From positions 1 through 38,459 of IMG/VR virus record IMGVR_UViG_2896607866_000012: a stretch of DNA of 38,459 bases. One strand, written 5' to 3'. The notes beneath the pieces were generated by a model. It searched no databases. It saw only the letters and a program-made list of their open reading frames with translations, and had not been told where the DNA came from. Source of the stretch: a virus. Its lineage: Duplodnaviria > Heunggongvirae > Uroviricota > Caudoviricetes. This document shows, in pieces, positions 5,713-30,590 of this stretch. Within the stretch, counting starts at the first letter, position 1; the number at the start of each line of letters is the position of its first letter. The position numbers were made by a program, and so were the translations under genes.

Positions 5713-7548
5713 TTACCTGCCAAAGCGCGTATAGCCAACATCATGGCTGACATCAAAACCGCTGGATCGCGTTTCCATAACCCGCATACCCGGAGGCGAA
5801 TTCACAAAAGAGACCTTGATCTCACCATCAACTTTTGGCGCAGTAGCTTTATTAATCATGAAGGGATTCGGGCCTGTGGCACCGGAGGCGTTGTTTGACT
5901 GAGCCAGATCCACCACCGGATAAGGTGTGTATCCCCGTGCCGGTATTCCCGTCCCATAAGCATCATAAGCACCCGCGCCCCACTGCGCAGAGTTAATGGC
6001 ATCGACCGTGTCTCCGGAACTGTCGGTAAACCACTCAATAATTGGCTTCAGCTTGTCCCACATATCCTGAAACCACTTAACAACCGGCCCCCAGTGATTG
6101 ATCACCATCCCCAGCGGCGACCAGGCAAAAACTTTCTTAAGGAGTTCCCAGCCAGCCTCAAAATAAGGACCAATGGTTTCCCAGAGCTTCTTGAAATAAG
6201 GTCCGACAACATCCCAGTTAGTGATAATTAATCCCGCAGCCATGGCTATCGCCGTCGCAATCATGCCAATCGGCGTCATCGACATGATCCTGCTGACAAT
6301 GCTGATGGCACTGCCCACGCCCATCAATCCCAGTTTCAGAATCGCAAGACCGGCAGCAAGCCCGACGACGCCGCGAATAACCCGGGGATTTTCATCCGCA
6401 AACTTCGTGAATTTCTCCCCCAACTCCCCCAGCCACTGCGTGATGTTCTTAGCGTCACCAGAAAATGCGCCGCCAATAGCCGCAAGGCCGTTAGTTGCGG
6501 TCCCCGTCATTGCCTCCCACAGGTTGGACAGCGTACCAAGCTGAGCCTGAACACGTTTATTCAGGCTGGCCTGTTTATTCATCTTCTGCTGGATCTGATC
6601 GTAGCCATCCTTTCCTTTATCGATCAGCGCATTGACCACCTGAAGGGTTTCGGCATCATCACCAAATATTGCCTTAAGTACACCGGTTCGCTTAACGTCG
6701 GTCAGTTTTCGCAGCTTTGCCAGTTGCCTGAACATGTTATCAAGACCGCCAAAACTCCCTTTGCCATCAGTAAAATCGAGCTGTACCCCGAGTTTCTGGC
6801 GGGCCATGATTTTATTGACGTCCCTGATTTTCTTAACGCTTAATCCGGACTGGATAACTTTTCGCAGGGCATTACCTGCCGACTCCCCGTTCATCCCCAT
6901 CTGATCCATCATGACACTGATGGGGGCAAGACTCTGTGCAGCCTGAAGACCGTCCTTATTCACCATCTTCAGAACAGAGCTGGTTTTAGTGAAGAATGAC
7001 AGCATGTTGGTGTCGTCAACGCCCAGATAAAACGCCTTCTGAATTGTGTCGAACAGCCCCATCATGTCTTCTGAGGCCGTTCCGGTAGCATCCTGCATCT
7101 TTGCAGCAAACTCAGCAGCCGCTTCCGGTGTTTTTTTCAGTTGTACCGCAAGATAAGCTGTCGCTTTACCCACACCGCCAAGAATGTTTTCTGCCGGGAT
7201 CCCCTGACGCACCAGCATCTGCATCATGTTCTGGAAATCAGCCGTTGTACCGGGTAGCTGGTTACCCAGGCCAATAGCCAGTTTATTGATGTCCTGAAAG
7301 CTCTTTCCAACCTCGCCGTTCGCATCCATCATGGCGACTTTCAGCCCGGTGGCGGCGTTTTCCTGATCGGCATAAGATTTCAGGGAAAGCGTCAGACCCG
7401 CTGCCAGTCCGCCACCAAGCGCCAGCCCACCCTGTGACGCTTCTTCCGCCTGGCGTTTAAATCCCCGGATTTTCTTTTGCATTTTCGACAGCGCGGGAGA
7501 AAGCCTGTCGACACCGGTGATCAACGCCTTAAGCTCAAATTCAGCCAT
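5713..7548 (-). CDS. tail tape measure protein
   Basis: 611 aa ORF with Ala/Gly-rich and predicted helical/hydrophobic segments; preceded by frameshifted chaperone pair. Confidence 0.8.
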   Translation of the reverse strand: MAEFELKALITGVDRLSPALSKMQKKIRGFKRQAEEASQGGLALGGGLAAGLTLSLKSYADQENAATGLKVAMMDANGEVGKSFQDINKLAIGLGNQLPGTTADFQNMMQMLVRQGIPAENILGGVGKATAYLAVQLKKTPEAAAEFAAKMQDATGTASEDMMGLFDTIQKAFYLGVDDTNMLSFFTKTSSVLKMVNKDGLQAAQSLAPISVMMDQMGMNGESAGNALRKVIQSGLSVKKIRDVNKIMARQKLGVQLDFTDGKGSFGGLDNMFRQLAKLRKLTDVKRTGVLKAIFGDDAETLQVVNALIDKGKDGYDQIQQKMNKQASLNKRVQAQLGTLSNLWEAMTGTATNGLAAIGGAFSGDAKNITQWLGELGEKFTKFADENPRVIRGVVGLAAGLAILKLGLMGVGSAISIVSRIMSMTPIGMIATAIAMAAGLIITNWDVVGPYFKKLWETIGPYFEAGWELLKKVFAWSPLGMVINHWGPVVKWFQDMWDKLKPIIEWFTDSSGDTVDAINSAQWGAGAYDAYGTGIPARGYTPYPVVDLAQSNNASGATGPNPFMINKATAPKVDGEIKVSFVNSPPGMRVMETRSSGFDVSHDVGYTRFGR

Positions 7549-7959: not shown

Positions 7960-8315
7960 TACTGGTAATCCCCTTCTTCACCGTGGAACTCAAGATCGAC
8001 CGTGCCTTCTTCGGCATTATGGTTCGCTTCGCCGTGCAGCCAGGCAGACGACAGTACATAGACCTGACCGTTCGCCAGCTCGGCAGTGATGGTCATCTCA
8101 TCAGACGAGGTGATTTTGCTCACCGGAAAATTCTTCGGCACCTTGAAGGTCCCTTTGACATAAGGCGCACGGTGAGTTTCCTTGCGGTCCACTGAACCGT
8201 CCAGGCCGATGATGTCATCATTGACCGTCCTGTTCATGGGCACCTCAATGCCGCCGGTCAGCGATAGCTGCTGACCGTCCATTTTGAAATAACAGGTTCC
8301 CCCGATACGGGCCAT
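7959..8315 (-). CDS. tail tube protein
   Basis: 118 aa ORF directly downstream of sheath gene. Confidence 0.65.
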   Translation of the reverse strand: MARIGGTCYFKMDGQQLSLTGGIEVPMNRTVNDDIIGLDGSVDRKETHRAPYVKGTFKVPKNFPVSKITSSDEMTITAELANGQVYVLSSAWLHGEANHNAEEGTVDLEFHGEEGDYQ

Positions 8316-9811
8316 TATGCAGACTCCTCTGAATACTGAAGACGGAACTGGTTAACCACGGCAAAGACACGCAACTGGTTAACATAGTCAGGCGGGAACA
8401 GCGTGTTCAGGCGGTTCGGATCGCTGGCATCACGCTCCACAACCAGGTACTGCTTAAACAGTTCGTAGTTTTCCACGATCCCCGCACGCTCAAGCTGACG
8501 GTAGGTTGCCAGCAGTTCCCCTTTGATCACCGCCGGGGTGACAATCGCCTGACCGGGACCAAAGCGGGTACCGTCGCTGGCAAGCTTGTGACGCCCGTAC
8601 TTACTGGTAATGACGGATTTCAGTTTGCGCAGAACATACGCACTGGTATGCAGCGTCTCGCTGTCGAGGTAGCTGTTATCCGCAACCCCGTAAGCATTTT
8701 TCCTGTACGTGGTGACATCACGCTGAATGCGCAGCACCCCGCTTTCGACATACGCCGTTGCCACGCCATGAAACAGCAGGGTCTGCTGTTCGGTCATCGT
8801 GAACCGTTTCCCCTTCGGCGCAGGCAGCATACCCACCAGCTCACCGGTCTGCGTGGGACATGCCGGATCGTTGCGGATAAACACCGCTGCGCGGGCGGTA
8901 CGGCTTGCCGCCAGCTCGTCGGCAGGCGTCTGGGTCTCTTTTTCGTACCCCGCCAGGGTGATGTGCTGCTGGTTAAACTGGTCACCTGCGGTCACCAGTT
9001 CTGACAGCGTGCCGATCTTTGCCGTATACACATGACCATACAGCTGACGCGCATAGCTCCAGCGACCGCTGGTATCGTTCATCTCGGTCACCAGCGTGTT
9101 AACGGAGGCCGTGTCGTTGAACGGCAGACCGATATAATCAAACGGCTCATCCGCCATTGCAGCCACCGCACCGGTGAGAACCGGAGCGCCCGTTCCGGCG
9201 GTCCCCGTCGCCACGGCAATCTGTACGCCCGCTGGCAGCACTTCGCCCCCACCAAAGCCGTAGTAATTGAGGCTGACAGGAATTTCATTCCCGCAAAGCC
9301 CCTTATGACGCGCGGTCAGTGTGACCACGCCTGCCGAAGATGAGGCCGTAAACGGCAGGGCCGGAACGGCATTGATGGCATCCTGGATACTGCTGGCAAT
9401 CGTCGTGACGTTATCGCCGTTGGTCACCGGTGCCTGCACGCGGGTACGTCCCACATAAACATTCACCGTGCCGGTTTCGGTTGCCGCCCCGGTCACCGTC
9501 AGCGTAACCGTTGCCGCCGCGCCTGTGGCTTCCGGAACGGCAATCACATACAGCTCACCAAACGGGTCGGTCTGGCGATAAGCCTCGACCATACGCGCCA
9601 GCTGACTTCCCGCACCACAAATCTGGCGTGCATAGTCTGCCGACGGCATTAGTACCAGACTGTTGGCAACAATCTCTGCACCGTTATTGGCATGACCAAT
9701 CAGCAGCGATGCTCCGCTGTCCTGTGCAGTATTCGCCGCCGAGTTATCCATTTCCGCATAAAACAACGGAACCAGCGTATTCGACGGAATGGTGTTAAAG
9801 CTTATCGTCAT
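8315..9811 (-). CDS. contractile tail sheath protein
   Basis: 498 aa ORF, size and position typical of Mu/P2-type sheath. Confidence 0.85.
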   Translation of the reverse strand: MTISFNTIPSNTLVPLFYAEMDNSAANTAQDSGASLLIGHANNGAEIVANSLVLMPSADYARQICGAGSQLARMVEAYRQTDPFGELYVIAVPEATGAAATVTLTVTGAATETGTVNVYVGRTRVQAPVTNGDNVTTIASSIQDAINAVPALPFTASSSAGVVTLTARHKGLCGNEIPVSLNYYGFGGGEVLPAGVQIAVATGTAGTGAPVLTGAVAAMADEPFDYIGLPFNDTASVNTLVTEMNDTSGRWSYARQLYGHVYTAKIGTLSELVTAGDQFNQQHITLAGYEKETQTPADELAASRTARAAVFIRNDPACPTQTGELVGMLPAPKGKRFTMTEQQTLLFHGVATAYVESGVLRIQRDVTTYRKNAYGVADNSYLDSETLHTSAYVLRKLKSVITSKYGRHKLASDGTRFGPGQAIVTPAVIKGELLATYRQLERAGIVENYELFKQYLVVERDASDPNRLNTLFPPDYVNQLRVFAVVNQFRLQYSEESA

Positions 9812-24893: not shown

Positions 24894-25387
24894 TAAGCCC
24901 CCACGTAATTCCCTGACAGATACCACTCTTCACCCGATGCAGCGCGCTTGCTGCTTTTCCGTAAGCACCGCTCACGATGCGCCAGAAAATTGTTTCGTTC
25001 TGGCTGGGAGTGGCTTTCACGGAATGCCTCCATCCACACCGTTGCAGCTCGACGGAATAAGCCCCTGGACTCCAGTTCTTCAGCCTGGCGGGTCAGGCAC
25101 AAAATCACCCGGGGGTCGTTAGTGCCGACATAGAAATTGCGCACAGGTCTGGTTTCACGAACAGATTGTGGTTCCGGCTCCTGCGCTCTCTCAGTCAGGC
25201 GCGGGAAATGTCTGCGTGTATCTCCTTCACAACGGTGAGCCACACGCCCACTCTGACGTAACTTGCTTGCTGACTGCAGAACGCGCTGCCGTGAGTAACC
25301 AGCAAAAGCATCCGCAATGTCTCCGGAAGTACACCCCGGATGGGCTTCAATGAATTTCTGAACTTCATTCAAAAGACTCATAATCAC
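24893..25387 (-). CDS. hypothetical protein
   Basis: 164 aa basic ORF downstream of the replication gene; no confident family. Confidence 0.3.
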   Translation of the reverse strand: MIMSLLNEVQKFIEAHPGCTSGDIADAFAGYSRQRVLQSASKLRQSGRVAHRCEGDTRRHFPRLTERAQEPEPQSVRETRPVRNFYVGTNDPRVILCLTRQAEELESRGLFRRAATVWMEAFRESHSQPERNNFLAHRERCLRKSSKRAASGEEWYLSGNYVGA

Positions 25388-26214
25388 CCCCTGAATCCTG
25401 CCGGGATCTGGCTGTAGTCCACGTTGTCGTAACTGGCTTTGAAGTACGGGTCCTCGCGTCTGGCTGCAGATACTGCAGGAACTTCCCAGGATTCTTCGAA
25501 ATGACGATCCGGACCAAAGAACGTGACAGCCTGTTTCACAAATTGTGTGCCGCTGTTACCCATCGCAGATACCCAGCCCGCGTAGCGTTTCACACCTTCC
25601 AGCATGGTTTCGGGGTTTACCCCCTCATTCAAACGGGCTTTCCAGGCTTTGAAGGCTGCAGATTTTGAATTGCCACCAGCACGTTTGGGATAGGCCAGCC
25701 ATGCCTGCTCAAACTCCGGAGAGTATTCCGGTCGGTTTGAACGAACTCGCACAGACTCATCAGCAGATGCACCAACAGCTATTGGGTCATTGACTGGTTC
25801 TTTGACTGGTTCTTTGACTGGTTCAAAAGAGTGACTGGTTCTGGGTGAATCTCCTGCACTACCCCCTGGTGCAACTCCTGCACTACCTGGTGAATTTGCT
25901 GCACCAGATAGTGAATTATTTGCACTACCCCCTAGTGAATCTCCTGCACCATCAAGATGAAGGAGATAGATATTACTTGAGTTACCTTTTTCACCTTTCC
26001 GGGTGACTTTTTTTACCAGCCCGGACTCACAAAGGGCCGCAATATGATTCATCACAGAACGTTTGCTAATCTCGCACTGGTCAGCAATATGCTGGTAGCT
26101 GGGCCAGCACTCACCCTGATCGCTGGCATTATCAGCCAGCTTGATCAGAACCAGTTTTCGCAATGGATTACCCACTCGAATTTTCATCGCTTTAACCATC
26201 AGCTCCATACTCAT
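25384..26214 (-). CDS. replication initiator-like protein with N-terminal HTH (lambda O-like architecture)
   Basis: 276 aa; N-terminal winged-helix/HTH, central low-complexity linker encoded by tandem DNA repeats, conserved C-terminal domain; start overlaps upstream stop (ATGA). Confidence 0.55.
   Translation of the reverse strand: MSMELMVKAMKIRVGNPLRKLVLIKLADNASDQGECWPSYQHIADQCEISKRSVMNHIAALCESGLVKKVTRKGEKGNSSNIYLLHLDGAGDSLGGSANNSLSGAANSPGSAGVAPGGSAGDSPRTSHSFEPVKEPVKEPVNDPIAVGASADESVRVRSNRPEYSPEFEQAWLAYPKRAGGNSKSAAFKAWKARLNEGVNPETMLEGVKRYAGWVSAMGNSGTQFVKQAVTFFGPDRHFEESWEVPAVSAARREDPYFKASYDNVDYSQIPAGFRG
25791..25950. repeat. iteron-like tandem repeats inside replication gene (candidate ori)
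   Basis: TGACTGGTTCTT x3 plus one degenerate copy (25791..25842), then four or five 21-24 bp repeats of (T)CTCCTGCACTACC(CC)CTGGTGAA (25848..25950). Confidence 0.45.
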
Positions 26215-26447
26215 GCTGCACCTCCGAGATGCTTCATGTTTTTTCCGGAGCGAAAGGCTATAAGCGGCATACTGACGCGGTAATTACGGCCCAGCGGTTC
26301 ACAAACCACCTTCTGACATTCACGGTCAACCAGGCTAACACATAGAACATGCCCTGCAGGCGTGGTGTACCACTGCCCAACTGTAGGAATTGATATTTTT
26401 TTACGCTGAAGCAAACGGCAAATATTGAGGATCAACGGATTAAGCAT
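26211..26447 (-). CDS. hypothetical protein
   Basis: 78 aa ORF translationally coupled between flanking genes. Confidence 0.3.
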   Translation of the reverse strand: MLNPLILNICRLLQRKKISIPTVGQWYTTPAGHVLCVSLVDRECQKVVCEPLGRNYRVSMPLIAFRSGKNMKHLGGAA

Positions 26448-27276
26448 GACGATGCCCTCCGCTGATATTCAGGAGACGGTGAATATGAAAATTAGCCTTA
26501 TCCGCCAAACGGATACGTTCAGCCTGCAAGTTAAGAAGGGTTTCTACCAGAACCTGATGCGCCTGCGGATCCGAAAGAGTTACCTTGCGCAGAGCACGTA
26601 GTGCAGTTGTTACATAACTGAGTTTATGTAAGTCTTCATCATTCAGACGAGTGAGGGCTGGGACAGTAGCCATGATGGCAGCCTCCGATAACAGTGAATT
26701 ACCTTCACCACCGGAAACGCCAATTTCGCTGGTGGTGAACTGAACGGGGTTGGCGTAACCGGCGTTATCGGAAACCGGCGCACCTTTCAGTGCCCCCGTC
26801 CAGCCCACCATAATTTGGGTGTGCGCAGACGCAGACGATAAAAAAGACGCTGGCGCGTCATATATCGCCGATAACATTTCCAGGACGCCAATCCCGGCAC
26901 CCGCTTTATAAGGTGCCTGAACAGTGTAACGTCCCGGAATGGCAGAATCAATGTGCTGGTGGTCCTTCACACTCAACAAAATCACGCCTGAATTTCCACA
27001 AAGGACTAAAGCACTCATGCGGGTAGTCTTTGCGAAGATAGATAACGCGCTGTGTTTCTGGCTCCCAACGAATAACATGGACATAAAGCCCTCTTCCGTC
27101 ACGAAACCAGCGGTTAAGTTCCTGCACAACTCGCCCCCCACAGTCAGGTAAAGTTCTCTGTGGTTACTTACAGCCAGGTGATTTGGTAATCTGCATTCAT
27201 GCCGTAACAACAGGTGTTCAGCGACACTGACCACCAGCTGTTGCGACAAACGGTTATTTGCCGTTAAACTGTTCAT
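26440..27276 (-). CDS. hypothetical protein, 278 aa
   Basis: ORF in early-right operon between CII-like and replication genes; no recognised motif. Confidence 0.35.
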   Translation of the reverse strand: MNSLTANNRLSQQLVVSVAEHLLLRHECRLPNHLAVSNHRELYLTVGGELCRNLTAGFVTEEGFMSMLFVGSQKHSALSIFAKTTRMSALVLCGNSGVILLSVKDHQHIDSAIPGRYTVQAPYKAGAGIGVLEMLSAIYDAPASFLSSASAHTQIMVGWTGALKGAPVSDNAGYANPVQFTTSEIGVSGGEGNSLLSEAAIMATVPALTRLNDEDLHKLSYVTTALRALRKVTLSDPQAHQVLVETLLNLQAERIRLADKANFHIHRLLNISGGHRHA

Positions 27277-27836
27277 GCGTTAGTTTCTCCACAGACACAA
27301 AACGCCACGACGCCCGTAGCTGCACACTCGCGGGCGTCACTCTTTTCTGGAGCGCAAAAGATTTTGTAGACCAGTGCTGCATGCTCCTGGAGCTTCGAAA
27401 TTGACAGATACAACTCATCATTAATTGCTGTCTGCTCGTGTGGCTCCACGACCCCATCTTCGATTGCCGAACGAATCTGCTTTGAGTAATTCCCGATCTG
27501 TTCGATGACTTCCAGCAGGCGCTGGTTTATATCGGCGTTCTCTACTTCCTCAATTTCAGGAAGCGATACGAACACCCCACCAGCAGACTGTGCGACAGCA
27601 TCCGCAATGTAGTGAGTGCCAGCCGCGCGCTGTAAAACCATTGCCCATCCCAGCGGGAAAATCTGATCGCCATCGGCACGAAGGCGGTTAAATAATGCGT
27701 TCTCTGTTACATCCAGCCAGTCAGCTGCTTCAGCGTAACCACCCGGCAACGCTGCGATAGTTTTTCTGACAGCTTTCACGTACCACTCAGGCTGTTTTTC
27801 TACTTTCCAGTGATACTTACCCACGGTTAGCCTCAT
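27273..27836 (-). CDS. CII-like regulatory protein (CP76/YdaT-like)
   Basis: 187 aa ORF immediately downstream of cro-like gene; family from memory. Confidence 0.45.
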   Translation of the reverse strand: MRLTVGKYHWKVEKQPEWYVKAVRKTIAALPGGYAEAADWLDVTENALFNRLRADGDQIFPLGWAMVLQRAAGTHYIADAVAQSAGGVFVSLPEIEEVENADINQRLLEVIEQIGNYSKQIRSAIEDGVVEPHEQTAINDELYLSISKLQEHAALVYKIFCAPEKSDARECAATGVVAFCVCGETNA

Positions 27837-28158: not shown

Positions 28159-28833
28159 ATGAAAACAATCCATGACATCCGGCGGTCTAACGCCAGAAAA
28201 CTGAGAGATGGTGTTGGCGGAAATTCATCCTTTGCCACCATGATTGATCGCGAGCCAACCCAAACCAGCAGGTTTATGGGGGATGGCGCTACTAAAAATA
28301 TCGGTGACAGCATGGCACGGCACATCGAAAAATGTTTCGACCTGCCTGTCGGATGGCTCGATCAAGAACACCAGACAACGAACATCACAAAAAAACCTGA
28401 TGTTTCAATCACTAATAAACAAATCACATTAGTCCCTATCATATCATGGGTACAGGCCGGAGCATGGAAAGAAGTTGGATATTCTGAGGTTGATTTGAGC
28501 ACAGCAGAAACGTATCCCTGCCCTGTACCCTGTGGGGAAATGACTTATATCTTGCGGGTGATAGGTGATTCAATGATTGATGAGTACCGCCCGGGAGACA
28601 TGATTTTTGTCGATCCTGAAGTACCTGCCTGCCACGGTGACGACGTTATTGCATTGATGCACGATACAGGTGAAACCACCTTCAAAAGGTTGATAGAAGA
28701 TGGGACACAGCGTTATCTCAAAGCGTTAAACCCAAACTGGCCTGAGCCTTACATTAAGATCAACGGTAATTGCTCTATAATTGGAACTGTGATTTTCTCA
28801 GGAAAACCAAGAAGATACAAAATCAAAGCCTAA
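28159..28833 (+). CDS. CI-like repressor with S24 (LexA/UmuD-type) peptidase domain
   Basis: 224 aa; N-terminal DNA-binding region, C-terminal GDSM...K motifs; divergent to cro-like gene. Confidence 0.85.
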   Translation: MKTIHDIRRSNARKLRDGVGGNSSFATMIDREPTQTSRFMGDGATKNIGDSMARHIEKCFDLPVGWLDQEHQTTNITKKPDVSITNKQITLVPIISWVQAGAWKEVGYSEVDLSTAETYPCPVPCGEMTYILRVIGDSMIDEYRPGDMIFVDPEVPACHGDDVIALMHDTGETTFKRLIEDGTQRYLKALNPNWPEPYIKINGNCSIIGTVIFSGKPRRYKIKA

Positions 28834-29302: not shown

Positions 29303-29421
29303 TTTTTTCAGGTAACTCGTCGGCATCGCAGAAACAACAACGCTCGATCTGAAGTGGCACACTGAATTTGGCCACCTGAACAGAGGTGATATGCTCACCT
29401 CAGAACAACACAGGTGCTCCA

Positions 29422-30590
<1,169 letters not shown>

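What the first reader, a model, noticed from the sequence alone, without database searches (positions are those of the whole stretch)
26211..27276. Two unassigned genes inside the early-right operon between the CII-like and replication genes
A 278 aa protein (26440..27276) and a 78 aa protein with a CxxC-like pair (26211..26447) are translationally coupled (overlapping stop/start) between the CII-like regulator and the HTH replication initiator. Neither shows a motif I recognise (no Walker A, no DnaC/P-like features). In lambda this position is empty; in Rac-type prophages it holds ydaU-like genes of unknown function.
Basis: inference. Interest (0 to 1): 0.45.

Follow-up and report, generated by a model that had tools for sequence, protein, structure and literature searches.

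The report
Hidden RNA switch inside prophage "gene"
The supposed 278-amino-acid gene is really a composite that hides a small protein gene in another reading frame and a P4/P1-type antisense-RNA switch (IsrK plus C4 RNAs) that most likely gates translation of a nested 77-residue protein, the 78-residue protein and the phage replication gene behind them.

Summary
Both ORFs exist exactly as described and are chained by overlapping stop/start codons, on the minus strand of an SfV/e14-like E. coli prophage. The 278-codon ORF is not an ordinary protein gene.

- **Codons 51-110** overlap a conserved DUF4222 gene in another frame (26948-27127). That frame has dN/dS 0.03-0.18. The 278-codon frame has 1.2-8.9.
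- **Codons 121-183** are two Rfam RNAs on the same strand: IsrK (26916-26840) and C4 antisense RNA (26815-26728). The Pfam "Ash" hit is their conceptual translation (dN/dS about 1), as in phage P4.
- **RNA pairing:** the C4 loop is complementary to a site in IsrK and to the Shine-Dalgarno region of a nested 77-aa ORF (26673-26440). All three sites co-vary across about 8 specificity types in 34 related sequences.
- **Open frame:** the long frame has no stop in any variant, like P4 eta over kil.
- **The 78-aa protein** is an SH3/Tudor-like barrel, probably a distant DUF4222 paralogue, coupled to the replication initiator.

Most likely this is a P4/P1/Gifsy-1-type RNA immunity cassette controlling the nested ORF, the 78-aa ORF and Rep. 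It is a new variant of a known kind. Regulation is inferred, not shown.

The parts
26440..27276 (-). Long 278-codon ORF. A composite frame analogous to P4 eta: kept open but not constrained as protein upstream of codon 202.
   Evidence: ORF. ATGA overlap with ymfL. Frame open in all 71 related loci in which it could be located. No stops in this frame against a mean of 2.1 and 3.7 in the other two frames, over isrK+1..+270 in 34 distinct sequences. dN/dS about 1 over the RNA part and 1.2-8.9 over the DUF4222 overlap. The P4 long ORF 8168-8812 has the same layout and the same Pfam Ash hit.
27128..27276 (-). First 50 codons of the long ORF, between the ymfL stop and the DUF4222 start. A leader with no protein-coding signature.
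   Evidence: Window versus ST64B: differences by codon position are 7, 12 and 13, plus a 6-nt indel. Only this frame is open here. The e14-type leader is different and shows a weak third-position excess (16, 16, 29).
26948..27127 (-). DUF4222 gene: 59 aa, GTG start, G-rich Shine-Dalgarno sequence upstream. It lies in a different frame from the long ORF.
   Evidence: Pfam PF13973, E 9.5e-14. RefSeq annotates it as a separate gene. dN/dS 0.03-0.18 with differences at third positions. It is a stand-alone gene next to the replication gene in Pantoea, Providencia, Serratia, Yersinia, Morganella and E. coli phages, where the other frame has stops. 371 family clusters. AF2 pLDDT 89, SH3/Tudor-like barrel.
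26923..26951 (-). Putative isrK promoter: TTGATT, 17 nt, TACACT, 6 nt, then +1 at 26916. The -35 element overlaps the DUF4222 stop codon.
   Evidence: Read from the sequence. It matches 8 of 12 consensus positions, below the scan threshold, so one search did not report it. Promoter-like hexamers sit at the same position upstream of the isrK-like element in P4 and in Ss-VASD (TTGACT-17-TATATT). Inferred, not shown.
26840..26916 (-). IsrK-like sRNA (the P4 seqA equivalent), carrying the decoy/target site seqA (GTTATCGG, 26868-26875) and an intrinsic terminator (stem 26846-26859 plus U6).
   Evidence: Rfam RF01394, 63.7 bits against gathering score 50, E 1.6e-11. Terminator scan hit. seqA:seqB has 9 pairs, 7 of them compensatory, with 98% of cells paired.
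26728..26815 (-). C4 / P4-CI-type antisense RNA. The hairpin-2 loop carries seqB (CCGATAAC, 26764-26771). The AUG at 26811 (codon 156) matches the position of the first AUG of Gifsy-1 orf45.
   Evidence: Rfam RF01695, 79.8 bits against gathering score 45, E 3e-14. Outer stem of 17 pairs is 100% paired, with 4 compensatory pairs. Hairpin 1 has 4 of 5 compensatory pairs. The same RNA pair follows DUF4222 at the same offsets in ST64B, Stx1_499 and the Rha variant. orf45 AUG at position 107 (PMC4825925).
26682..26692 (-). seqC target (GTTATCGG) overlapping the Shine-Dalgarno sequence GGAGG, 8 nt upstream of the nested start codon.
   Evidence: seqB:seqC has 12 pairs, 7 compensatory, with 93.6% paired. 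The whole tested structure is 95% paired, against 41-46% when the register is slid. Cognate duplex -19.4 kcal/mol against -5 to -11 for other types in this window's row. GTTATCGG occurs 5 times against 0.89 expected, and 3 of these are seqA, seqB and seqC.
26440..26673 (-). Nested 77-aa ORF (codons 202-278 of the long ORF), sitting in the kil/icd/antirepressor slot. An orphan protein.
   Evidence: The Shine-Dalgarno sequence and ATG are nearly invariant across the variants, and the sequence diverges a few codons after the ATG. The same start opens P4 kil (65 aa), Rha antirepressors (181-185 aa) and other cargoes. VT2phi_272 annotates its Rha gene from this ATG. Beyond its own clusters, only two informative relatives (both 46% identity) among 1.84 billion representatives. 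No similarity to Kil or Icd.
26211..26447 (-). 78-aa ORF-B: a small SH3/Tudor-like barrel, probably a distant DUF4222 paralogue. It is coupled to the nested ORF (8-nt overlap) and to the replication gene (ATGA).
25384..26214 (-). Replication initiator (context). The last gene of the translationally coupled chain and the presumed ultimate target of the switch.
   Evidence: Pfam HTH_36 and DnaD_N. PHROG 270 and others, 'replication initiation protein'.
27273..27836 (-). YmfL / CII-like gene (context). Its stop overlaps the start of the long ORF.
   Evidence: Pfam Phage_CP76. PHROG 101. NCBIfam YmfL, E 1.9e-50.

Best explanation
The interval is a mosaic regulatory cassette, not two plain genes. 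Reading along the minus strand after the CII-like gene ymfL:

1. A roughly 150-nt leader.
2. A small SH3-like DUF4222 protein gene.
3. A P4/P1/Gifsy-1-type RNA switch. It consists of an IsrK-like sRNA with its own weak promoter and intrinsic terminator, a C4/CI-type antisense RNA, and a target site (seqC) overlapping the Shine-Dalgarno sequence of a nested 77-aa ORF.
4. The 78-aa SH3-like ORF-B, then the replication initiator. Each is coupled to the gene before it by overlapping stop and start codons.

**Shown here**
- The RNAs belong to curated families, with compensatory support for their stems.
- The C4 loop (seqB) is complementary to seqA in IsrK and to seqC at the Shine-Dalgarno sequence. 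The three sites co-vary through about 8 specificity types.
- The DUF4222 frame, not the long frame, is under purifying selection.
- The 'Ash' stretch evolves neutrally at the amino-acid level, yet never acquires a stop codon.

**Inferred, by analogy with P4 (from memory), P1 and Gifsy-1**
- C4 RNA, processed from read-through transcripts, pairs with seqC and blocks ribosome binding at the nested ORF.
- Without that translation, coupling to ORF-B and Rep is lost, and the untranslated RNA is exposed to Rho.
- IsrK, carrying seqA, competes for C4 or remodels the leader, and so sets the threshold.
- Ribosomes entering the long ORF from ymfL on pR transcripts translate straight through the IsrK terminator, C4 and seqC. 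Lytic transcripts would then be insensitive to the RNA block, as P4 eta does for kil. This would explain why the frame is kept open without amino-acid constraint.
- The 77-aa product is the cassette's cargo. Other cassettes carry Kil/Icd division inhibitors or Rha antirepressors in this slot.
- ORF-B and DUF4222 are accessory proteins tied to the replication initiator.
For: **RNA elements**
- Rfam hits above gathering score for isrK and C4, on the operon strand, inside the ORF.
- The same RNA pair in three relatives. C4 lies upstream of icd in a P1-like phage. Both RNAs lie inside the P4 long ORF.
- The Pfam Ash hit coincides with the RNAs here and in P4.
- Covariation: C4 stems 100% paired with compensatory changes. 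seqB:seqC has 7 of 12 compensatory pairs. seqA:seqB has 7 of 9, with a covariation score of 0.884 against 0.214 in shuffles and at most 0.15 when the register is slid.
- The cognate pairing is the most stable in nearly every row of the specificity matrices.
- Intrinsic terminator found by the scan.
- The 257-nt leader folds with z = -4.9.

**Reading frames**
- Shine-Dalgarno sequence and ATG nearly invariant across variants, with different cargoes immediately downstream.
- DUF4222 frame dN/dS 0.03-0.18; long frame 1.2-8.9.
- Ash frame over the RNAs: differences of 637, 633 and 617 by codon position; dN/dS 0.66-2.4.
- No stops in the Ash frame against 2.1 and 3.7 in the other frames.

**Literature**
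- Gifsy-1 has the same layout: isrK, an ORF whose first AUG is at position 107, and a translationally coupled antirepressor. Its authors liken IsrK to P4 seqA (PMC4825925).
- P1 Icd is a small FtsZ-targeting protein encoded after c4 (PMC11897509).
Against: - There are no expression data, so none of the regulatory steps is observed for this element.
- The isrK promoter matches only 8 of 12 consensus positions and was not reported by the scan.
- A predicted cis hairpin that sequesters the Shine-Dalgarno sequence has no convincing covariation.
- Translation of the whole long ORF is inferred only from the absence of stops. It would have to coexist with translation of DUF4222 in another frame.
- In Gifsy-1, IsrK activates rather than represses, so the sign of the IsrK effect here is uncertain.
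- The 77-aa cargo is nearly invariant in the available loci. Its only distant relatives are known at the protein level, so its coding status rests on limited evidence.
- The P4 eta/kil mechanism is cited from memory. The papers were not available.
Confidence: 0.72

Rival explanations
1. The 278-aa ORF encodes a genuine Ash-family regulator or antirepressor, as databases annotate it. Its central domain would fold and act as a protein. The RNA-family hits would be incidental.
For: - The ORF is long and open, with an ATG and an ATGA overlap.
- Pfam Phage_ASH scores above its cut-off.
- PHROGs 3960, 821 and 995 are labelled 'transcriptional regulator'.
- There are more than 2000 database homologues, many called as 278 aa.
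Against: - In the Ash stretch, differences are spread evenly over codon positions and dN/dS is about 1.
- Stems show compensatory changes that alter the encoded amino acids.
- The N-terminal third has dN/dS above 1, while the overlapping DUF4222 frame is conserved.
- RefSeq does not call the 278-aa form at all.
- In P1 the homologous stretch lies upstream of icd, around the C4 RNA.
- No solved-structure relatives were found.
Confidence: 0.04
2. The RNA switch is real, but the long ORF upstream of the nested start is never translated. Only DUF4222, possibly an orf45-like frame from the AUG at 26811, the 77-aa ORF and ORF-B are made. The open frame would be a by-product of RNA sequence conservation and chance. 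pR transcripts would themselves be subject to the IsrK terminator and to C4.
For: - DUF4222 has its own Shine-Dalgarno sequence, and its stop lies 32 nt before isrK +1.
- The leader shows no coding signal.
- RefSeq leaves 27128-27272 unannotated.
- In 933W-type phages the open frame begins only just upstream of isrK.
- In more distant phages the frame has stops across DUF4222.
Against: - There are no stops in the long frame in 34 distinct sequences and about 8 hypervariable specificity types, against 2.1 and 3.7 in the other frames.
- All indels seen are multiples of 3.
- The ATGA overlap with ymfL is conserved in the window, ST64B, e14, SfII and Klebsiella.
- P4 has a precedent in eta, though this is cited from memory.
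Confidence: 0.2
3. The cassette is a decayed remnant. An Rha-type antirepressor cargo was lost and replaced by a meaningless 77-codon frame, and the RNAs no longer regulate anything in this prophage.
For: - Most related cassettes carry a 181-185-aa Rha antirepressor.
- The 77-aa protein is an orphan.
- An IS3-type insertion lies nearby in the window.
Against: - The 77-aa cargo is found with four different, fully matched seqA/seqB/seqC specificities (WIN, L079, L035 and L061 types).
- Two relatives at 46% identity keep a conserved motif, and both also follow a C4-derived N-terminus.
- The Shine-Dalgarno sequence, the ATG and the overlaps with ORF-B and Rep are all intact.
Confidence: 0.06

Closest known systems
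Satellite phage P4 immunity region (seqA - cI RNA/seqB - seqC, with the nested genes eta and kil, followed by epsilon and the replication gene alpha)
   Same: - Same order of elements on one strand: an isrK/seqA-like RNA, a C4/CI RNA, then a Shine-Dalgarno sequence and ATG in the context EAAIMAT opening a short nested ORF.
- A long in-frame ORF spans the RNAs and gives the same Pfam Ash hit.
- The next gene overlaps the nested ORF's stop.
- Replication genes lie downstream.
   Different: - This element sits in the pR operon of a lambdoid (SfV/e14-like) prophage, after a CII-like gene and a DUF4222 gene.
- The spacer between IsrK and C4 is 24 nt; in P4 it is 107 nt.
- The cargo is an unrelated 77-aa protein, not Kil.
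- The next gene is an SH3-like protein, not epsilon.
- The P4 mechanism (CI-dependent, Rho-dependent termination; eta translation conferring immunity insensitivity) is recalled from the literature and was not re-read here.
Phage P1/P7 immI operon (c4 antisense RNA - icd - ant1/ant2)
   Same: - A C4-family RNA is followed about 50 nt later by a small ORF that is coupled to the next gene. In the P1-like locus, C4 lies at 1545-1632 and icd at 1687-1908.
- The C4 loop is complementary to the ribosome-binding region of that ORF here. The corresponding P1 c4 mechanism is from my own knowledge of the P1 literature.
- Icd starts MATIPTP..., like the cargoes here.
   Different: - P1 has no isrK element.
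- Its cargo Icd is an FtsZ inhibitor (PMC11897509) with no similarity to the 77-aa protein.
- The downstream gene in P1 is an antirepressor, not a replication module.
Salmonella Gifsy-1 isrK - orf45 - anrP locus
   Same: - An isrK sRNA with its own terminator, read through into an mRNA.
- An AUG at position +106/107 inside the C4-like (STnc1160) region.
- Translational coupling to the next gene.
- Complementarity between IsrK and the downstream RNA (PMC4825925; window).
   Different: - In Gifsy-1 the short ORF ends after 45 codons and the cargo is an antirepressor that turns on antQ. Here the frame runs on in-frame into a 77-aa cargo, and the chain leads to replication genes.
- IsrK is an activator in Gifsy-1. 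Its sign here is unknown.
e14 ymfM (SfiC, SOS-inducible division inhibitor) of E. coli K-12
   Same: - Same position after ymfL, with the same ATGA overlap and MNSLT start.
- The same alternative-frame DUF4222 gene lies inside it, ending at the replication gene.
   Different: - e14, SfII and Klebsiella P7641 lack the isrK/C4 cassette, the 77-aa ORF and ORF-B.
- YmfM is only 33% identical to the window frame. The similarity is confined to the part that overlaps DUF4222, where the YmfM frame shows dN/dS above 1.

Membership tests
C4 antisense RNA (Rfam RF01695; P1/P7 c4, P4 CI) | Covariance-model score above the curated gathering score | tested here: met
   79.8 bits against gathering score 45, full length 1-87, E 3e-14.
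C4 antisense RNA (Rfam RF01695; P1/P7 c4, P4 CI) | Long closing stem enclosing two hairpins, supported by compensatory changes | tested here: met
   Outer stem of 17 pairs, 100% paired, 4 compensatory. Hairpin 1 has 4 of 5 compensatory pairs. Hairpin 2 is invariant.
C4 antisense RNA (Rfam RF01695; P1/P7 c4, P4 CI) | Loop complementary to target sites on the same transcript, one of them at the ribosome-binding site of the downstream ORF | tested here: met
   seqB:seqC has 7 of 12 compensatory pairs. seqA:seqB has 7 of 9. About 8 specificity types.
C4 antisense RNA (Rfam RF01695; P1/P7 c4, P4 CI) | Processing from a longer transcript (RNase P), and repression of downstream expression in trans | not testable with these tools
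   Needs RNA mapping and reporter genetics.
IsrK / P4 seqA-type sRNA (Rfam RF01394) | Covariance-model score above the gathering score, and a Rho-independent terminator at the 3' end | tested here: met
   63.7 bits against gathering score 50. Hairpin 26859-26846 plus T6.
IsrK / P4 seqA-type sRNA (Rfam RF01394) | Own promoter directly upstream | tested here: inconclusive
   TTGATT-17-TACACT placed 6 nt before +1, matching 8 of 12 positions. Not reported by the scan. Better hexamers sit at the same place in Ss-VASD and P4.
Pfam Phage_ASH (PF10554), taken as a protein domain | HMM score above the curated cut-off | tested here: met
   61 bits against cut-off 26, aa 117-210.
Pfam Phage_ASH (PF10554), taken as a protein domain | Amino-acid sequence under purifying selection, as expected of a folded domain | tested here: not met
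   dN/dS 0.66-2.4. Differences of 637, 633 and 617 across codon positions. The hit coincides with two RNA genes here and in P4.
DUF4222 (PF13973): the 59-aa alternative-frame ORF | HMM score above the cut-off, and purifying selection in that frame | tested here: met
   51.1 bits against cut-off 27. dN/dS 0.03-0.18. A stand-alone gene in six other phages.
DUF4222 (PF13973): the 78-aa ORF-B | HMM score above the cut-off | tested here: not met
   No hit for the window protein at E <= 0.1. The Stx1_499 homologue scores 14.1 bits, E 0.036, against cut-off 27.
DUF4222 (PF13973): the 78-aa ORF-B | Profile-profile similarity, same fold, and the same position next to the replication gene | tested here: inconclusive
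Icd / Kil small division inhibitors (P1 Icd, P4 Kil): the nested 77-aa ORF | First ORF after the C4 RNA, with its Shine-Dalgarno sequence inside the C4 target | tested here: met
Icd / Kil small division inhibitors (P1 Icd, P4 Kil): the nested 77-aa ORF | Sequence similarity to Icd or Kil | tested here: not met
   No BLASTP alignment at E <= 100 to either. Icd and Kil match each other at E 2e-7.
Rha-type antirepressor (PF09669) | Phage_pRha domain | tested here: not met
   Absent from the window ORF. Present in sister cassettes.

The most novel reading that the evidence does not exclude
**Main reading.** In SfV/e14-like lambdoid phages, a P4-style antisense-RNA immunity cassette acts as a second, exchangeable immunity layer.
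- It would gate translation of the replication initiator, through the nested 77-aa ORF and the SH3-like ORF-B.
- It comes in at least 8 specificity classes that recombine freely with different cargoes.
- The database family 'Ash protein' would be an ORF kept open only so that ribosomes from the lytic promoter can run over the RNA switch and override it.

**Corollary for E. coli K-12.** The SfiC/YmfM division-inhibition phenotype may belong to the embedded DUF4222 protein rather than to the annotated YmfM frame.
Probability: 0.3. Interest if true: 0.72.

Novelty: new variant of a known kind. Interest (0 to 1): 0.55.

Why it matters
- **Annotation.** 'Ash family protein' appears in thousands of Enterobacterales prophage annotations. 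It seems to be the conceptual translation of two regulatory RNAs, and the long ORF also hides a genuinely conserved small gene (DUF4222) in another frame. Any proteome-based survey of these prophages would miss the RNAs and miscount the genes.
- **Biology.** RNA-based immunity of the P4/P1 type would sit inside a lambdoid early-right operon, directly upstream of the replication genes. The matched seqA/seqB/seqC specificities are a natural set of orthogonal RNA switches.
- **E. coli K-12.** The same analysis shows that the conserved frame in the 3' half of ymfM (reported as SfiC) is the DUF4222 frame. This makes the molecular identity of SfiC directly testable.

Tried and rejected
- **Sequence search of the PDB** with the 278-aa translation gave only chance-level hits.
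- **NCBIfam** had nothing for either ORF.
- **Homologue searches.** The search for homologous proteins with the full ORF returned only relatives at 90% identity or more. These were useless for a deep alignment, so no structure was predicted for the long ORF or the 77-aa ORF. The first related-loci search with DUF4222 returned 80 loci at 97-98% identity. These were useless for codon tests on DUF4222 itself but turned out to carry the variable RNA specificities.
- **Promoter scan** found no sigma-70 site in 26100-27400. The proposed isrK promoter is therefore weak evidence.
- **Cis hairpin.** A predicted hairpin sequestering the Shine-Dalgarno sequence was tested for covariation. It was not convincing: 75% paired against 73% in shuffles.
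- **Kil/Icd hypothesis.** The idea that the 77-aa ORF is a Kil/Icd homologue was tested and rejected.
- **Deletion-remnant hypothesis.** The idea that the 77-aa ORF is a leftover C-terminus of an Rha antirepressor was rejected. BLAST found no similarity beyond the RNA-encoded part.
- **CxxC motif.** A metal-binding CxxC in ORF-B was rejected, because only one Cys is invariant.
- **Literature.** The P4 eta/kil papers could not be retrieved. One literature query was wasted on unrelated hits, and three failed on term length.
Full report
**1. Checking the observation**

The region lies on the minus strand of an SfV/e14-like lambdoid prophage of E. coli. It is 96-99% identical to phages 2H10, Ayreon and SfV, and 99.6% identical to E. 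coli SA186. The gene order is:

- a cI-like S24 repressor (28159-28833, plus strand);
- a cro-like gene;
- the CII-like gene ymfL (27273-27836);
- the 278-codon ORF (26440-27276);
- the 78-codon ORF (26211-26447);
- an HTH/DnaD-like replication initiator (25384-26214);
- PerC, Dam, a LexA-like gene and RusA.

These two ORFs correspond to SfV orf37 and orf38.

**2. The first third of the long ORF hides another gene**

RefSeq does not annotate the 278-aa form. It calls a 181-aa 'ash family protein' and, in a different frame, a 59-aa DUF4222 protein at window 26948-27127. That short ORF matches Pfam DUF4222 at E 9.5e-14.

In Pantoea, Providencia, Serratia, Yersinia, Morganella and another E. coli phage, DUF4222 is a stand-alone gene. 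It lies immediately upstream of the replication gene and usually overlaps it. In several of these phages the other frame is interrupted by stops.

Codon statistics are unambiguous. In the DUF4222 frame, differences fall on third positions (for example 3, 3, 14 and 7, 6, 27) and dN/dS is 0.03-0.18. In the 278-codon frame the same substitutions give dN/dS of 1.2-8.9.

The 50 codons upstream of DUF4222 show no coding signature between the window and ST64B (7, 12 and 13 differences by codon position).

**3. The middle third is two RNA genes**

A gathering-threshold Rfam scan found two hits on the operon strand:

- isrK (RF01394) at 26916-26840;
- C4 antisense RNA (RF01695) at 26815-26728.

The Pfam Phage_ASH hit (aa 117-210, nt 26647-26928) covers exactly these two elements.

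The same pair follows DUF4222 at identical offsets in ST64B, Stx1_499 and an Rha-carrying E. coli prophage. C4 alone precedes icd in a P1-like phage. e14, SfII, Klebsiella P7641, Pantoea AH07 and the Providencia phage have neither RNA.

In P4 itself, both RNAs lie inside the long ORF 8168-8812, and that ORF gives the Ash hit over them. So PF10554 is, at least at its core, the translation of the P4-type immunity region.

Across nine cassette variants, differences in the 'Ash' frame are spread evenly over codon positions (637, 633, 617) and dN/dS is 0.66-2.4.

**4. RNA-RNA pairing with exchangeable specificities**

I took 34 distinct versions of the cassette from IMG/VR and GenBank loci. Three short patches change together:

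- seqA, in the single-stranded part of IsrK (window GTTATCGG, 26875-26868);
- seqB, in the hairpin-2 loop of C4 (CCGATAAC, 26771-26764);
- seqC (GTTATCGG, 26692-26685), which overlaps the Shine-Dalgarno sequence GGAGG, 8 nt before an ATG at 26673.

The counts are as follows.

| Element | Pairs | Compensatory | Cells paired |
|---|---|---|---|
| seqB:seqC | 12 | 7 | 93.6% |
| seqA:seqB | 9 | 7 | 98% |
| C4 closing stem | 17 | 4 | 100% |
| C4 hairpin 1 | 5 | 4 | 100% |

For seqA:seqB the covariation score is 0.884, against 0.214 in shuffles and at most 0.15 in slid registers. Cognate duplexes are the most stable in nearly every row of the cross-specificity matrices. This is the seqA - cI(seqB) - seqC layout of P4 immunity. 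The Gifsy-1 authors draw the same analogy for IsrK.

The IsrK terminator was found independently by the terminator scan. A promoter-like TTGATT-17-TACACT sits 6 nt before isrK +1. It is weak (8 of 12 matches, not reported), although better hexamers occupy the same position in Ss-VASD and P4.

**5. A nested gene starts at 26673**

The Shine-Dalgarno sequence and the ATG are nearly invariant across the variants, and the sequences diverge a few codons after the ATG. From that ATG the cassettes encode:

- a 77-aa protein (window type, found with four different specificities);
- P4 Kil (65 aa);
- 120-aa and 215-aa proteins;
- most often, 181-185-aa Rha antirepressors. Pfam places the Phage_pRha domain a few residues after this start.

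One GenBank record annotates its Rha gene from this ATG.

The 77-aa protein has no similarity to Kil or Icd. Among 1.84 billion cluster representatives it has only two informative relatives, both 46% identical. They keep the motif LVTTALRSLRKV...LQxERxRL, and both also follow a C4-derived N-terminus.

An upstream AUG at 26811, inside the 5' end of C4, corresponds to the first AUG of Gifsy-1 orf45 (position 106 here, 107 there). It is in frame with the nested ORF.

**6. Why is the whole 278-codon frame open?**

Over isrK+1..+270 the long frame has no stops in any of 34 sequences. The other frames average 2.1 and 3.7 stops. All indels are multiples of three. The ATGA overlap with ymfL is shared by the window, ST64B, e14, SfII and Klebsiella.

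P4 has the same arrangement: a long ORF (orf199/eta) spanning the immunity RNAs, with kil nested in frame at its end. ST64B's depositors already noted similarity to 'P4 ORF199'.

From my memory of Forti et al. (J Bacteriol 1999), translation of eta from the upstream promoter makes those transcripts insensitive to CI-RNA-dependent termination. I could not retrieve this paper.

I therefore propose that ribosomes coupled from ymfL on pR transcripts read through the switch and override it. Transcripts from the isrK promoter would remain subject to C4. This step is inferred. The rival view, that the frame is untranslated, keeps about 0.2 probability.

**7. The 78-aa protein (ORF-B)**

It belongs to a narrow family confined to Enterobacteriaceae, with no Pfam domain (PHROG 1153; 105 clusters). 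Its first 20 or so residues change with the cargo type upstream.

DUF4222 (pLDDT 89) has the same strand order and largely the same neighbours. Further evidence links the two:

- profile-profile comparison gives E 1.7e-4 (probability 50%) over 45 columns, and in that register the secondary-structure elements coincide;
- a homologue scores E 0.036 against Pfam DUF4222;
- both proteins sit directly before a replication initiator and overlap it.

I regard ORF-B as a probable distant DUF4222 paralogue. It may be a replication-associated adaptor or a coupling device, but its biochemical function is unknown.

**8. Mechanism, with status**

*Shown:*
- the gene and RNA anatomy;
- selection in the DUF4222 frame;
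- neutral amino-acid evolution of the Ash stretch combined with retention of the open frame;
- three-way covariation that places the C4 loop on the Shine-Dalgarno sequence of the nested ORF;
- the chain of overlapping start and stop codons down to Rep.

*Inferred from P1, P4 and Gifsy-1:*
- C4 occludes the Shine-Dalgarno sequence;
- loss of translation propagates through coupling and Rho polarity to ORF-B and Rep;
- IsrK modulates the block through seqA;
- translation of the long ORF overrides it.

*Unknown:*
- the activity of the 77-aa cargo. In other cassettes this slot holds division inhibitors (PMC11897509) or antirepressors (PMC4825925).

**9. Comparison and novelty**

The RNAs are members of known families, and the logic is that of P4, P1 and Gifsy-1. 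Four things are new:

- the location, inside a lambdoid pR operon between DUF4222 and the replication gene;
- the orphan cargo together with an SH3-like partner;
- the documented set of recombining specificities;
- the recognition that the 'Ash' protein family is RNA-derived.

I rate this a new variant of a known kind, of moderate interest.

**10. Side finding: e14 ymfM**

In K-12 e14, ymfM is reported as the SOS-inducible division inhibitor SfiC (bioRxiv 10.1101/2020.11.19.390815). It has the same embedded DUF4222 gene (L003 6002-6181, TTG start), preceded by an AGGAG Shine-Dalgarno sequence that I read from the sequences printed. The cloned ymfM ORF contains 53 of its 59 codons. The conserved frame there is the DUF4222 frame. 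Which product causes filamentation remains open.

Noticed in passing
L003 (E. coli K-12 e14) 5823-6181; window 26948-27127: The K-12 gene ymfM ('cell division inhibitor YmfM', SfiC) contains the DUF4222 gene in another frame (TTG start at 6002, with AGGAG upstream as read from the sequence). The DUF4222 frame is the one under purifying selection. The published pBAD-ymfM clone and the ymfM deletion would both affect DUF4222, so the product responsible for filamentation is ambiguous.
   Followed up: partly
Loci L005-L086 (alignment A1), junction at window 26671-26686: Specificity type (seqA/seqB/seqC) and cargo (77-aa protein or Rha antirepressor) are found in several combinations. For example, the window specificity occurs with both cargoes. 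This implies recombination at the nearly invariant stretch around the Shine-Dalgarno sequence and the ATG.
   Followed up: partly
window 26385-26447 and homologues: The first 20 or so residues of ORF-B come in two versions: MLNPLILNI... after the 77-aa cargo, and MIRNIFKRF... after Rha cargo. The barrel core is conserved. So the exchange boundary of the cargo module lies inside ORF-B.
   Followed up: no
window 27304-27320 (minus strand): A terminator-like hairpin (7 pairs) followed by GTTTTGTGTC lies inside the 3' end of ymfL, just before the start of the long ORF. It is one of two scan hits in the region. Its significance is unknown.
   Followed up: no
window 29386-30590 (plus strand): Two overlapping ORFs (111 aa and 290 aa) look like an IS3-family transposase pair with the usual frameshift arrangement. 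They are inserted near the immunity region, on the cI side. This is judged from the translations only.
   Followed up: no
L095 1687-1908; L096 8168-8365; P1-type Icd, P4 Kil and the Rha-type cargoes all begin MAT(I/T)(P/L)T... The first codons after the C4-controlled start are conserved across unrelated cargoes, perhaps as part of the RNA target or the translation-initiation region.
   Followed up: partly
L002 2730-3417 (RefSeq annotation of the same locus): PGAP calls a 181-aa 'ash family protein' from a GTG that overlaps the DUF4222 gene by 38 nt, and leaves 146 nt after ymfL unannotated. GenBank phage records-aa, 220-aa or longer fused 'antirepressor' ORFs. None of the records inspected annotates the two RNAs.
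   Followed up: yes
(Pantoea AH07, Providencia PSTCR8lys, Serratia BZS1, Yersinia YeP3, Morganella IME1369_02, E. coli SaltyDalty): DUF4222 genes sit directly upstream of replication initiators of different families (O-like, DnaD-like/primosomal protein I and others). In four of the six phages the stop overlaps the initiator's start codon by a few bases. This suggests a conserved functional or translational link to replication initiation.
   Followed up: partly
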